From assembly GCA_965178125.1 (NCBI GenBank), contig OZ237764.1, positions 682,001-746,000 on the forward strand: a stretch of 64,000 bases of DNA. The letters run 5' to 3'. This DNA is from Bilabrum cf. latius. Taxonomy: Eukaryota. How positions within the stretch are numbered: position 1 is the stretch's first letter; each line of letters begins with the position of its first letter. The position numbers were made by a program, and so were the translations under genes. Under the pieces are notes generated by a model. It was given only the letters and a program-made list of their open reading frames with translations. It did no database searches and was not told the DNA's origin. Below are positions 9,770 through 15,774 of this stretch, one piece after another.

Positions 9770-11779
9770 GATGCCAGAGTGTACGCGCAACCTAGTCTCG
9801 TTAACAATCAGACATGGCAAGACCTGACAAAGCTGTGCCTGTGCGCGACCCTTGACCGGACTGACCGGGGCTGGGAAGAGCACGTGCACTGATGCTGGAC
9901 ACGACCACGAGCTGCTGCCCTGCGGCAACCAGGACGGCAAGGACGCCGTCGAATGCACGCAAGCAGCGCGCACGAGCACACAGCCTAAAGCAAAGGAAAT
10001 AGCCGAGTAAATAGTGCATAGTAACTCGCTAGATGGCACCTACTTTTCTCGTCCGCCTGCAGCAGACGACTCCGAGTTGGACGCATCAAACTTCCCAAAA
10101 CTGGCATTGCTCATCGGCAGAGCTGCATGAAGCCGGCTCGTGAACGAGAAAATAGCCGATTCAATCTTGGCTCTCGTCACGGCCTGACCAAACAGGGCAC
10201 GGGCCAGTTCTGCAGCGAAATCGCGGCCGCTAGCGTCCAAATGAAGCGCGTCAGCCTAGCAAAACCGCGGCATGAACGCGGATTGGCGAAAGATCGAGGT
10301 CAACGTTGCCAAGAAATCATCAGAAAACCAATTCTGCATTCGAATTGCAGCGATTGAAGGTGCAGAGGCCTCACGCTACAAAATCTCCACTGGTTGCGAG
10401 CGAACGACCGCGGAGTCCACTGCCGTGCCTGCGCCCGGTGAAACTGGGTCAATTGAAGACGCAGGCTGCGGTGAGGCAGAAGATGACACAGGAGGTTCAC
10501 GGGGTGGCTGATGAGCGGGTGTAGCGTCGACCGGTGGCGGGGATGAGTGCATCGAGGCTGCTAGTCGGTGCGAGAAGTACCATTGCAATTCCACGTGGGC
10601 GGAGAGGTGCGACAGCAGCTCTTCCTGGCGCAGAGTCGGAATGCGGTGCCACAGCGCAAACAGGCGTAGATGCAGAATTGTCGCTGGGTCGGCCGTTCCC
10701 CGCAGCGTCGTGGAGTGCAACACTGCCCGTTGGAGATCCCCAGGAAGGCGGCCCCAGACCGCGTCGAGCTAGCGGCTGGTGCCCGGAGTCACGCCGGGGG
10801 AGTCGTAAGCCGGAGACACACGAGGAAGAAGAAGCTGGGGGCCTGCCGGGCCCGTTGACCGTGATGCTGCACTGCTGAGCGCCTCCGCGAGCACTGTCGG
10901 ATCGCCGAAGTCCCGAGTGCCTGGCCTACCGGGGATCATGCCCGAGGCAGGTGGAGGTTGGTGCCGCGGGGGTGAAGACGTTGAGAAGTTGGGCTGGGCG
11001 CTGCGCTGGGTATCTGCTGCTGTCCCCGGGGGCCCTCGGTTCGGGGACTCGTGCAGGTGGGCCCGCCCGCCGCGCGCGAGCGGGGCCTGCCGCGTCGTCG
11101 AAGAGCCTGGCCGCGCCCGCAAGGGCGAAATTCCGCGGCTTGTCCTGGTGGCACTCTACGCCGCTCGGTCGCGTCCAGGTGAAGCATGGATGGCGGCGCC
11201 GAAGTCGAGGCGTCCTGGTGGCCGATGCTGTCCGCGAAGAGGAGCGGTCCGCCGGCCCGTCGGTCGTGAACTCAGGGACCATGGAGACTCGATTGAAGAA
11301 GGAGCCTCTGGAGATTGCTGAACAGGATGAAGATGTACTTGTCCTGCGAGTCGCTCAGGCTGTTGCCGTCGAGGAGAGCTCGGCGACGCCGGCAGAAGCA
11401 GCCGTGCACCGAGAGTCGTTAGCGTCCCATTTGACACGAACTTGGCGAGAGCGGTGCTCTTGACAGCATTAATGGACCGTGATGCCGTGAAGGACTGCTT
11501 TGATGAGTACCTGTCGAGCAAGTAGCACAGGAACCCCGCATCGTGTGCACGTTGAAGATCGGGATCGCGAGGTGCCATGGTGTCGCGCTGCACGTTGAGA
11601 CGAGCAATGAAATCCGAGAACACAGCATCATTCATACCATATCGAGTAGCTAAATCGGCCAACGTGACCGCAGGTTGGCCTACCGCGCGAGCGAACACTG
11701 CAGCTGCGGCGATCACCCTGGCGCTGCCTGCTGCCCCGCGCGCCGCCGGGTCGATCCGATGGCTACCGGCGCTGTTCAT
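9770..11779 (-). CDS. Gag-like ORF (~670 codons) running into the element's 3' terminus
   Basis: ORFs 11156-11779, 10769-11122, 10376-10723, 10040-10240 and 9713-10039 are one frame separated only by TAG (11156, 10769, 10376, 10256, 10040). Gag identity is inferred from position. Confidence 0.55.
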
Positions 11780-11981
11780 GTTAAATGAACGGAGCAGGAA
11801 CTTTCTTCAAAAATTACCCAATCTCCGCCCCTCTCCTGAACACAGAGAGGGTATGCGCGTCATCGCAAGCAATCCGTTGGCTTGGTCGCACCTTCCCGGT
11901 CGCAACTGCCATCGGAACCCAACGAGACGTTCACGCGCTCCCACTCTGGCATCAACACCGAACCCCATCCGGCGTTAGGAT
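9770..11981 (-). mobile_element. YR-retroelement derivative 1 (gag-like ORF only), 2.2 kb
   Basis: 5' 175 bp (11982-11808) and 3' 121 bp (9890-9770) match the ends of element 2 at 12363-12537 and 15651-15771. GAT/ATC core at both junctions. Confidence 0.85.
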
Positions 11982-12537
11982 CATAATCAGTATATCAAAG
12001 GATATATTTACAAGTTGTTTTCACCAAAGGCACCACAAAAAATTTATATTGGAAGCACCACCAATAGTTTGAAAGGTAGATTATATTCCCATATGGCAAA
12101 TTATGAGAACTATTTACAAAATCCAGAAGGTAAAGGTTGTTGCTCATCATATTCCATACTACAGCATACAGGAGAACCCGAAATAAGTTTAATTGAAGAA
12201 ATAGAACTGGATAAAACCAAAATCAGCTTTAGACTACCACTAGTCAAGAGAGAACGATACTACATAGAGAAATTTAAGCTAATGGAGAATATTGAATGTG
12301 TGAATAAACGAATTCCTTCCCGTAATCAAAAGGAATGGAAGGCGGAAAATAAAGAGCATCTTGATCCTAACGCCGGATGGGGTTCGGTGTTGATGCCAGA
12401 GTGGGAGCGCGTGAACGTCTCGTTGGGTTCCGATGGCGGTTGCGACCGGGAAGGTGCGACCAAGCCAACGGATTGCTTGCGATGACGCGCATACCCTCTC
12501 TGTGTTCAGGAGAGGGGCGGAGATTGGGTAATTTTTG

Positions 12538-15408: not shown

Positions 15409-15602
15409 TGTGTTTGGACCGTGCTGGGGTCGCCTTCGAGGTCATTAGGCGATTCGGCAGATGGAAGTCGGCATCTGCATGCGAGGTGTACTTGCGGGGC
15501 GTCAGGGAAGGCTTGCCTCCTCTGGAGCTCGGCGGCAGGAGCCTCGATTTGAACAGGCCAGTGTGGGTGCTGGCCAGCGCGCTGCGGCTGAACTTGGAGT
15601 GA
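14544..15602 (+). CDS. Tyrosine recombinase overlapping the RT/RH frame (start uncertain; frame open from ~14265)
   Basis: With TAG=Gln: GGLRLGEL (Arg), HGHSIRIAA (HxxR), FGRWKS, EVYLR (Tyr); TGA 15600-15602. Confidence 0.9.
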
Positions 15603-15774
15603 GCCACACAGCCGCAGCGTACAAGACATGGCGGTAAGATTTGGCGGAGTAGTGCACGTGCTCTTCCCAGCCCCGGTCAGTCCGGTCAAGGGTCGCGCAC
15701 AGGCACAGCTTTGTCAGGTCTTGCCATGTCTGATTGTTAACGAGACTAGGTTGCGCGTACACTCTGGCATCATG

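What the first reader, a model, noticed from the sequence alone, without database searches (positions are those of the whole stretch)
9770..15771. Reciprocal gag-only and RT/RH+YR-only retroelements with shared ends: possible bipartite retrotransposon
Seen: element 1 (minus strand, 2.2 kb) and element 2 (plus strand, 3.4 kb) share the first ~175 bp and last 121 bp almost exactly. Their interiors do not overlap: a long gag-like frame versus RT-RNaseH plus YR. Each inserted independently with precise ends, ~380 bp apart and head-to-head. Established: gag-less variants of YR retrotransposons are reported. Inference: complementary segments that together supply a full DIRS-like gene set. Caveat: the RT frame begins without ATG at the junction and the gag frame has no stop inside the element, which also fits two deletion derivatives.
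Basis: partly seen in the sequence, partly recalled or inferred. Interest (0 to 1): 0.78.

Follow-up and report, generated by a model that had tools for sequence, protein, structure and literature searches.

The report
Two truncated retrotransposons inside a virophage
Two neighbouring mobile elements that looked like complementary halves of one retrotransposon are separate, overlapping deletion copies of a longer tyrosine-recombinase retrotransposon, sitting in an integrated virophage of a host that reads the stop codon TAG as an amino acid.

Summary
The shared ends are real. A 176-nt 5' repeat (A, 99.4% identical) and a 122-nt 3' repeat (B, 100%) bound two GC-rich elements with unrelated interiors. 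They lie head-to-head, 378 bp apart, in one small GIY-YIG gene of an integrated virophage. Element 2 does not end at 15771. A third copy of A follows B (A1-interior-B1-A2, the Ngaro-type split direct repeat) and is cut off at 15926 together with the virophage capsid gene. All 16 in-frame stops in the three frames are TAG, and TAG is also frequent inside the virophage's own genes, so TAG is a sense codon here (probably Gln) and the ORFs are intact. The pair is not reciprocal. A database protein from another copy of the family (P0011) carries the last 50 codons of element 1's ORF, then 334 further codons, then the first 28 codons of element 2's interior, all in one frame. The full-length element therefore encodes ORF1, linker and RT/RNase H continuously. 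The two short forms are internal deletions that overlap by about 1 kb, and neither holds the linker, which is also present in a cousin family. Best reading: two independent deletion derivatives. Bipartite reading: not supported, not excluded. Genome-wide copy counts could not be made.

The parts
9769..11983 (-). Element 1 (El1), 2215 bp: A, then a 28-nt leader, then ORF1, then B. No A2. It is an internal-deletion derivative that keeps only the upstream ORF.
   Evidence: Repeats. Junctions with host. The deletion is defined by P0011.
11808..11983 (-). Repeat A of El1 (176 nt, 1 mismatch to A1 of El2).
9891..11779 (-). ORF1 of El1: ATG at 11779, 629 codons to the junction with B, 5 in-frame TAG. 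The frame stays open through B and 18 host codons to TAA at 9713. It is a conserved protein of unknown fold: no Pfam or NCBIfam family matches, and it is 'gag-like' by position only.
   Evidence: Relatives P0002 (58% over residues 111-507), P0003 (96%, 88%), P0005 (82%). No family.
9769..9890 (-). Repeat B of El1 (122 nt, 100% identical to B1 of El2). Its last base abuts codon 3 of the GIY-YIG gene.
12362..15926 (+). Element 2 (El2), 3565 bp: A1, a pol/YR interior, B1, then a truncated A2. It is an internal-deletion derivative lacking ORF1 and the linker. Its 3' end was lost after insertion.
   Evidence: The deletion is defined by P0007 and P0011.
12362..12537 (+). Repeat A1 of El2 (176 nt).
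12538..14685 (+). RT/RNase H part of the pol frame. The frame is open 12532-15405 with 7 TAG. The first in-frame ATG is at 12862. El2's interior starts at an internal codon of the full-length ORF.
   Evidence: P0001 is 58% identical from interior residue 3. Pfam RVT_3 at 7e-06, above its cut-off. RVT_1 at 0.014, below its cut-off, colinear over profile positions 1-144 of 205. The RT and RNase H motifs are read by eye.
14265..15602 (+). Tyrosine-recombinase frame overlapping the pol frame: 4 TAG, stop TGA at 15600-15602.
   Evidence: Relatives P0008 63%, P0009 49% and P0010 54%, two of them with PF00589. Invariant Arg, His-x-x-Arg, Trp and Tyr blocks.
15651..15772 (+). Repeat B1 of El2 (122 nt).
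15773..15926 (+). Repeat A2 of El2: 154 of 176 nt, 100% identical to A1, truncated against the capsid gene.
15739..15835 (+). B|A junction hairpin. The last 34 nt of B are an inverted copy of A positions 30-63 (13 nt perfect). The element's end point lies at the stem-loop boundary.
   Evidence: Folding as DNA gives -30.8 kcal/mol, z -7.85, 0 of 200 shuffles as good. E3 has the same layout.
9761..12361 (+). Virophage GIY-YIG nuclease gene, hit twice. ATG at 9761. El1 sits after 8 nt and El2 after codon ~129. The C-terminus is lost.
   Evidence: Pfam GIY-YIG 1.5e-06. Frame continuity.
15927..16939 (-). Virophage major capsid gene, truncated. Its 337 codons cover positions 37-323 of the 508-residue Sputnik V20 chain, and the frame then runs into A2.
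18639..19226 (+). E3: a 588-bp GC-rich insertion of a related family, with an A-like start and a B-like end (both diverged). It sits in the virophage protease gene with the frame restored and no target duplication.
3167..32294 (.). Integrated virophage carrying all three insertions. Its terminal inverted repeats are 100% identical (3167-3670 plus 4444-5101 against 31133-32294).
   Evidence: Genes.

Best explanation
El1 and El2 are two different internal-deletion derivatives of one family of Ngaro-type tyrosine-recombinase retrotransposons, about 6.5 kb when complete. Each inserted on its own into the GIY-YIG gene of an integrated virophage.

Shown. The complete element reads A1, leader, one long frame (ORF1, a 334-codon Gly/Arg/Ser/Pro-rich linker, RT, RNase H), a YR in an overlapping frame, B1, then A2. 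El1 has lost everything from codon ~630 of that frame to 122 nt before the end of B. El2 has lost everything from the last base of A to codon ~964. The two losses overlap by about 1.0 kb. All frames are intact once TAG is read as sense, as it is in the surrounding virophage and host-side genes. Joining El1's two termini gives exactly the B1|A2 junction found inside El2. El1 and E3 sit in their targets without any duplicated base.

Inferred. [quoted passage not shown] The deletions arose by template switching during reverse transcription, since position 176 of A is a breakpoint in two independent contexts. El1 needs RT/RH/YR in trans, and El2 lacks ORF1 and the linker. El2 later lost the rest of A2, and any B2, in a deletion that also removed the distal capsid gene. 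In their present state neither copy is likely to move on its own.
For: Shared ends and distinct interiors.

A1-B1-A2 order in El2, with a B1|A2 junction identical to El1's joined termini.

No target duplication at El1 and E3, with host frames restored.

TAG as sense. 16 of 16 in-frame stops in the three frames are TAG and none is TAA or TGA. Homology runs across TAG positions in pol, ORF1 and YR. There are 56 in-frame TAG in 3,776 codons of nine ORFs in the virophage's right arm, several with Pfam or PDB matches that span them.

Longer forms. P0011 residues 1-51 match 10039-9887 (94%) and residues 385-412 match 12538-12621 (100%), with 334 residues between them absent from the window. P0007 ends with the same 28 codons (93%) after 275 upstream residues. 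The linker is also present in the 58%-identical cousin P0001 (45-47% identity over two stretches).

El1's ORF1-to-B joint is derived: the 11 nt before B are shared by El2 and by P0004's copy but not by El1.

Other defective or rearranged copies exist: P0004.

Precedent. Ngaro elements with A1-[ORFs]-B1A2B2 structure insert in endogenous virophages of Cafeteria, with ORF1-deleted variants, solo AB repeats and two adjacent insertions in one virophage (PMC8547959, section 11 read in full).
Against: The link between ORF1's tail and the linker rests on a single protein, P0011. I could not see its contig. That P0003 (ORF1 N-terminus) lies on the same contig is inferred only from equal contig length (15,936 bp).

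No genome was available, so I do not know whether either short form recurs or how common full-length copies are. Exact look-ups of two junction-specific small ORFs found neither (0 of 2). Two scans of the only open contig collection, which holds bacteria and archaea, found nothing.

Both short forms keep long intact ORFs and near-identical ends, which is also what a complementing pair would show.

The RT call is weak by family models (RVT_1 E = 0.014, below its cut-off), and both structure models failed (pLDDT 33 and 32).

B2 was not seen, so the full Ngaro repeat pattern is unproven for this family.
Confidence: 0.84

Rival explanations
1. Bipartite or complementing family. ORF1-only and pol/YR-only copies are maintained as partners that mobilise each other through the shared A and B ends, like GAG-only Zeon and POL-only Cinful in maize.
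For: Both forms have intact ORFs under the TAG-sense code and ends that are 99-100% identical, and both inserted recently into the same virophage gene. In Cafeteria, ORF1-less Ngaros lie mostly in host DNA and ORF1 was proposed to direct insertion into virophages (PMC8547959, section 11). Here an ORF1-less copy sits in virophage DNA next to an ORF1-only copy, which would fit ORF1 acting in trans. Split GAG and POL families are documented for LTR elements (PMC8547701, passages read).
Against: The pair does not cover the gene set: 334 codons also present in a 58%-identical cousin family are missing from both. A contiguous form exists. El1 lacks A2, and El2's 3' end is truncated. No second instance of either short form was found, though the data are thin. 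Being 378 bp apart is not remarkable: with three insertions placed at random in about 22 kb, two fall this close in 10% of simulations.
Confidence: 0.09
2. One full-length insertion was split in place by a later rearrangement (inversion or recombination) into two pieces.
For: The two pieces are adjacent and in opposite orientation. The virophage has suffered at least one deletion next to El2.
Against: Each piece has its own A and its own B. El1's two flanks restore the GIY-YIG frame exactly. About 1.0 kb of the full-length interior is in neither piece. A single inversion cannot give both pieces both ends.
Confidence: 0.02
3. Assembly artefact: identical A and B repeats led the assembler to join parts of different copies.
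For: A and B are exact repeats longer than many short reads. The window lies in repetitive host DNA.
Against: The diagnostic joints (ORF1 to B, A to mid-pol) are unique sequences that must exist in reads. Only their flanks could be swapped. A1 and A2 differ from El1's A at one base, in a consistent way.
Confidence: 0.03
4. Decayed pseudogene copies: the in-frame stops are mutations (for example G-to-A hypermutation of TGG), not a sense codon.
For: All stops are of one kind, as a directional mutation process would give.
Against: At the 10 TAG positions aligned to the closest relatives, none aligns with Trp (Q,A,Q; R,H,Q; F,Q,H,Q). TAG is equally frequent inside virophage core genes and host-side ORFs. 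Relatives' predicted proteins end exactly at our TAG positions.
Confidence: 0.02

Closest known systems
Ngaro retrotransposons (types 1 and 2a) integrated in endogenous mavirus-like virophages of Cafeteria burkhardae (PMC8547959)
   Same: GC-rich YR retrotransposons inside AT-richer integrated virophages. Split direct repeats starting A1 and ending B1A2. Upstream ORF1, then RT/RNase H, then YR. Several insertions per virophage, some adjacent. Insertions occur in virophage genes.
   Different: ORF1 and RT/RH are one continuous frame here, whereas the paper lists ORF1 and ORF2 as separate ORFs. B2 was not seen. The host reads TAG as sense; the paper does not contain the term 'genetic code' (0 occurrences). 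Homology to the Cafeteria elements was not tested, because none of their sequences were at hand.
Cafeteria Ngaro type 2b (ORF1-deleted variants, PMC8547959)
   Same: El2 is a 5' internal deletion of about 2.9 kb that removes ORF1 and keeps RT/RH and YR.
   Different: Type 2b copies lie in host DNA. El2 lies in virophage DNA. El2's deletion also removes the linker and starts exactly at the end of repeat A.
TOC1, the non-autonomous DIRS-order retrotransposon of Chlamydomonas (named as such in PMC9940879, passage read)
   Same: A YR-retrotransposon derivative that cannot supply its own enzymes yet moves. El1 is of this kind.
   Different: El1 keeps a long intact ORF. That TOC1 lacks one is recalled, not checked.
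Cinful/Zeon of maize and 25 further LTR families with GAG and POL in different copies (PMC8547701, passages read)
   Same: Copies of one family sharing ends, one with the upstream structural ORF only and one with the enzymes only.
   Different: Those are LTR/integrase elements, and both forms are abundant. Here recurrence is unknown, the pair omits a linker that the cousin family also carries, and a contiguous form exists.

Membership tests
Ngaro-like YR retrotransposons (DIRS order) | Encodes a tyrosine recombinase instead of a DDE integrase | tested here: met
   Three relatives at 49-63% identity, two with PF00589 precomputed. Invariant Arg, His-x-x-Arg, Trp and Tyr blocks. PF00589 at 3.4e-04 on El2 itself, below the cut-off. 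No rve domain in El2.
Ngaro-like YR retrotransposons (DIRS order) | Reverse transcriptase plus RNase H | tested here: met
   RNase H: RVT_3 at 7e-06, above its cut-off. RT: RVT_1 is the only hit, colinear, E = 0.014, below its cut-off. The RT motifs are read by eye. The support is adequate, not strong. PDB sequence searches and the AlphaFold model gave nothing.
Ngaro-like YR retrotransposons (DIRS order) | Split direct repeats A1-[ORFs]-B1-A2-B2 (PMC8547959; PMC6681497) | tested here: inconclusive
   A1, B1 and A2 are present in that order in El2. A2 is truncated by a later deletion, so B2 cannot be seen. El1 has A and B only.
Ngaro-like YR retrotransposons (DIRS order) | Insertion without target-site duplication | tested here: met
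   El1 and E3: the host reading frames resume with no base duplicated or lost. That this is a feature of YR elements is recalled.
Ngaro-like YR retrotransposons (DIRS order) | RT/RH or YR groups with the Ngaro clade in a tree | not tested
DIRS-like sensu stricto | Inverted terminal repeats plus an internal complementary region (PMC6681497, passage) | tested here: not met
   The long terminal repeats are direct (A1 and A2). Only a 34-nt inverted match links the end of B to A positions 30-63.
Bipartite retrotransposon family (Cinful/Zeon type) | The two copy types together hold every coding part of the family | tested here: not met
   334 codons present in P0011 (275 of them also in P0007), with counterparts in the cousin P0001, are in neither element nor elsewhere in the window.
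Bipartite retrotransposon family (Cinful/Zeon type) | Both copy types recur as independent insertions | not testable with these tools
   No eukaryotic genome collection was open. Exact look-ups found 0 of 2 junction ORFs. The scans were empty.
Non-autonomous internal-deletion derivative | Same termini as a longer element, and an interior colinear with it apart from one deletion | tested here: met
   Both breakpoints are mapped on P0011. The El2 breakpoint is also mapped on P0007 and P0001.

The most novel reading that the evidence does not exclude
The two short forms are a working partnership even though they arose by deletion. El1 supplies ORF1 in trans, and ORF1 is what steers integration into virophage DNA. 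El2 supplies RT/RNase H and YR. The shared A and B ends, with the conserved junction hairpin, let each be copied and inserted by the other's products. That would be the first split (Cinful/Zeon-like) family among tyrosine-recombinase retrotransposons. It would also be a natural test of the proposal that Ngaro ORF1 sets target choice, since an ORF1-less copy sits in virophage DNA beside an ORF1-only copy.
Probability: 0.09. Interest if true: 0.6.

Novelty: new member of a known kind. Interest (0 to 1): 0.3.

Why it matters
For the finding itself, little changes: defective deletion copies of retrotransposons are ordinary, and the apparent reciprocity disappears once a longer copy is seen. Three things are still useful.

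1. It extends the association between Ngaro-type retrotransposons and endogenous virophages, described in Cafeteria, to a host with a different genetic code.
2. It shows an ORF1-only derivative beside an ORF1-less one. That pair could be used to test whether ORF1 acts in trans and directs insertion into virophage DNA.
3. It is a warning for annotation. Under the standard code these elements, and half of the virophage, look like stop-riddled pseudogenes. They are intact if TAG is sense.

Tried and rejected
- tRNA scan of the window for a TAG decoder: 0 genes.
- G-to-A hypermutation or decay as the source of the TAGs: rejected (0 of 10 aligned positions are Trp).
- A direct ORF1-to-pol join with a -1 frameshift, which I considered from the phases: superseded by P0011, which shows one continuous frame.
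- Apparent similarity of P0007's N-terminus to an alternative frame of El1's tail: not significant (score 25 against a shuffle 95th percentile of 35).
- El1 ORF against the P0001 N-terminus: no similarity.
- PDB sequence searches: YR gave no meaningful hit, and the pol profile gave none.
- NCBIfam: nothing.
- AlphaFold2 models of pol and ORF1: mean pLDDT 33.2 and 31.9, unusable, so no fold searches were run.
- ESM Atlas: the full ORF1 was not accepted under a stop-as-residue code. The N-terminal 207 residues gave only weak leads (best 0.80, some HTH or small-terminase clusters). Part of P0002 gave no usable hit.
- Rfam on 9500-19500: 0 matches at E <= 1. Repeat A folds only modestly better than shuffles (z -2.5).
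- Sputnik penton alignment to name the TAG residue: too distant (0 of 6 Gln by my reading).
- Exact look-up of junction-specific small ORFs: 0 of 2 in the collection.
- Scans of genome contigs with the conserved A core and with the pol alignment: 0 loci, and 115 pattern matches with none confirmed.
- Literature: no paper holds virophage + UAG + genetic code + glutamine. A search on DIRS, internal deletion, non-autonomous and gag listed no title on ORF1-only YR elements among the 10 shown.
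Full report
OBSERVATION

The repeat search confirms the shared ends. A 176-nt repeat (A) lies at 11808-11983 on the minus strand and at 12362-12537 on the plus strand, 99% identical. A 122-nt repeat (B) lies at 9769-9890 (minus) and 15651-15772 (plus), 100% identical. A blastn of one element against the other finds nothing else longer than 22 nt. The two A copies face each other across 378 bp.

One thing was missed. In element 2, B is followed at once by a third copy of A (A2, 15773-15926, 154 nt, 100% identical to A1). 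Element 2 is therefore A1-interior-B1-A2 and runs from 12362 to 15926. Element 1 is A-interior-B and runs from 9769 to 11983.

SETTING

The AT-richer DNA that carries both elements is an integrated virophage.
- Its genes include a Sputnik-type major capsid first domain (E 2e-23) and penton (V18-19, 2e-11).
- It also has a protein-primed polymerase B, a DUF5906 helicase, an rve integrase, a second chromodomain integrase, DUF5824 and a GIY-YIG nuclease.
- It is bounded by 100% identical inverted repeats: 3167-3670 plus 4444-5101 against 31133-32294.
- It lies in GC-rich repetitive host DNA.

Both elements interrupt the same small GIY-YIG gene. Element 1 sits after the eighth nucleotide of the coding sequence, and the frame resumes exactly after it. 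Element 2 sits near the 3' end of the gene.

A third GC-rich insertion (E3, 18639-19226, 588 bp) has a diverged A-like start and B-like end. It interrupts the protease gene, again with the frame restored and no duplicated base.

GENETIC CODE

Every in-frame stop in the coding frames of the two elements is TAG:
- 7 in the pol frame between 12532 and 15405;
- 4 in the YR frame, which then ends at TGA 15600;
- 5 in element 1's frame.

Homology to database relatives runs straight across these positions, and several relatives' predicted proteins stop exactly at them. In-frame TAG is also common in the virophage's own genes, with 56 in 3,776 codons of nine right-arm ORFs, and it occurs in host-side ORFs. 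TAA and TGA close all these frames. TAG is therefore a sense codon in this organism.

Against the closest relative at each of 10 positions, TAG aligns with Q,A,Q (pol), R,H,Q (ORF1) and F,Q,H,Q (YR). That is Gln at 5 of 10 and never Trp, so Gln is likely but not settled. A distant alignment to the Sputnik penton was uninformative, and no tRNA gene lies in the window.

WHAT THE INTERIORS ENCODE

Element 2 carries RT/RNase H.
- RVT_3 scores 7e-06, above its cut-off.
- RVT_1 is the only hit on the N-terminal RT piece. It is colinear but weak, E = 0.014.
- The YxDD-type motif and the other blocks are read by eye.

Element 2 also carries a tyrosine recombinase in an overlapping frame. Three relatives are 49-63% identical, two of them carry PF00589, and the catalytic Arg, His-x-x-Arg, Trp and Tyr blocks are invariant.

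Element 1 carries one ORF of 629 codons from ATG 11779 to the junction with B.
- It is a real protein. An exhaustive search found 4 representatives among 1.84 billion, including P0002 at 58% identity over residues 111-507 with fully conserved blocks.
- It matches no Pfam or NCBIfam family.
- The structure model failed and the atlas gave only weak leads.
- 'Gag-like' is therefore a statement about position only.

THE DECISIVE RESULT

Close copies of pol are cut by TAGs into short predicted proteins, so I searched the shorter proteins with the first 60 residues of element 2's pol frame. That search gave one hit among 95 candidates: P0007. It ends with the first 28 codons of element 2's interior (93% identity) but has 275 more residues upstream in the same frame.

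Its 90% cluster holds a longer member, P0011 (412 aa). By tblastn:
- P0011 residues 1-51 match window 10039-9887. This is the last TAG-free stretch of element 1's ORF, up to its junction with B (94%).
- Residues 385-412 match 12538-12621, the first codons of element 2's interior (100%).
- The 334 residues between them, rich in Gly, Arg, Ser and Pro with an RGG-type tract, match nothing in the window beyond low-complexity noise.

The same region is also present in the cousin family (P0001, 45-47% identity over two stretches).

It follows that the complete element encodes ORF1, linker, RT and RNase H as one continuous frame. Element 1 is that element minus everything from codon ~630 to 122 nt before the end of B. 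Element 2 is that element minus everything from the last base of A to codon ~964. The two deletions overlap by about 1.0 kb.

Adding the parts gives about 6.3 kb from A to B and about 6.5 kb with A2. That is in line with the cousin's 5.8-6.6-kb contigs, which hold pol and YR, and with the ~6 kb of the Cafeteria Ngaros (PMC8547959).

FURTHER ANATOMY

- The 11 nt before B are shared by element 2 and by P0004's copy but not by element 1, so element 1's ORF1-to-B joint is the derived one.
- P0004 reads through all of A, then 9 unmatched residues, the start of B, 10 more unmatched residues and the middle of ORF1. It is another scrambled copy. It also gives a second independent case, besides element 2, in which the native sequence is broken at position 176 of A.
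- The last 34 nt of B are an inverted copy of A positions 30-63. The B1|A2 junction folds as single-stranded DNA at -30.8 kcal/mol (z -7.85, 0 of 200 shuffles as good), and the element's end point sits at the stem-loop boundary. E3 keeps the same layout with different bases.
- A2 stops 22 nt short of the length of A, against codon ~337 of the capsid gene. That gene covers only positions 37-323 of the 508-residue Sputnik chain. A deletion after insertion therefore removed the rest of A2, any B2 and the distal capsid gene.

MECHANISM

Shown: the repeat order, the identity of the B1|A2 junction with element 1's joined termini, insertion without target duplication, the two mapped deletions, and intact frames under TAG-sense.

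[quoted passage not shown] Element 1 would need RT/RH/YR in trans. Element 2 lacks ORF1 and the linker and now lacks its 3' end.

COMPARISON WITH WHAT IS KNOWN

The closest known system is the Ngaro family that colonises endogenous virophages in Cafeteria burkhardae. It has ORF1-deleted variants, solo AB repeats and adjacent double insertions (PMC8547959, section 11 read in full; other passages by search). Differences here are the fused ORF1-pol frame, the unseen B2, an ORF1-only derivative (not mentioned in the parts of that paper I read) and the TAG-sense host.

Split GAG and POL families are known for LTR elements (PMC8547701, passages read). A non-autonomous DIRS-order element, TOC1, is known in Chlamydomonas (PMC9940879, passage read).

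LIMITS

No eukaryotic genome or metagenome collection was open, so copy numbers and the recurrence of the two joints are unknown. Two scans of the bacterial and archaeal contig collection found nothing, and exact look-ups of two junction-specific small ORFs found neither. The join between ORF1's tail and the linker rests on one protein whose contig I could not read. A working partnership between the two short forms is not excluded (about 0.09).

VERDICT

The elements are correctly recognised as YR retroelements, but they are overlapping deletion derivatives of a longer Ngaro-type element, not reciprocal halves. This is a new member of a known kind. Interest 0.3.

Noticed in passing
whole window; e.g. 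17042-18151, 19479-20489, 25476-27353, 27374-29269, 29270-30349, 32197-34323: TAG is read as an amino acid (probably Gln) in the virophage's core genes, in host-side ORFs and in the retroelements, while TAA and TGA end the frames. Under the standard code most of these genes look broken. No tRNA gene lies in the window.
   Followed up: partly
5114-12361 versus 15927-30349: The two arms of the virophage differ sharply. The left arm (31-38% GC; chromodomain integrase, two large ORFs, DUF5824, GIY-YIG) has 0 TAG in 1,606 codons. The right arm (41-51% GC; capsid, penton, ATPase, polB, helicase, rve integrase) has 56 in 3,776 (Fisher p = 1.7e-07 for TAG against CAA+CAG). The switch coincides with element 2 and the adjacent deletion, and each arm has its own integrase next to an identical terminal repeat. 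This may be a chimera of two virophages, one not adapted to this host's code.
   Followed up: partly
18639-19226: E3 is a 588-bp insertion of a related family, with an A-like start and a B-like end (both diverged) and an internal 31-nt direct repeat (18801-18831 and 19030-19060). It sits in the protease gene. It is either a solo A-B unit or a miniature non-autonomous element.
   Followed up: partly
3671-4443: A 773-bp strongly G-skewed (44% G, 20% C) insertion splits the left terminal inverted repeat of the virophage. It has no similarity to A, B or anything else in the window.
   Followed up: partly
15927-16939: The virophage major capsid gene is truncated after about 337 codons, so this virophage copy cannot be complete.
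   Followed up: yes
38040-43000: A tandem array of a 112-bp unit, more than 40 copies at about 95% identity, in GC-rich DNA with a strong A-over-T skew.
   Followed up: no
1-3178 versus 33414-34829, 44644-45326, 47331-48993, 49823-50490: The host DNA on the left of the virophage has 81-93% identical paralogues on its right in the same orientation, so the virophage sits within a family of host repeats.
   Followed up: partly
12377-12562 and 11807-11968 (minus): Repeat A holds a small ATG-started ORF that reads across the A|interior boundary (61 codons in element 2, 53 in element 1). The same ORF starts database protein P0004. It would act as an upstream ORF on any transcript starting in A.
   Followed up: no
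database proteins P0004 and P0007 (contig length 18,878 bp for both): These come from another copy or copies of the family that are scrambled. P0004 joins A, a piece of B and the middle of ORF1. P0007's first 16 residues differ from P0011 and, by eye, look like a frameshifted reading of the same DNA.
   Followed up: partly
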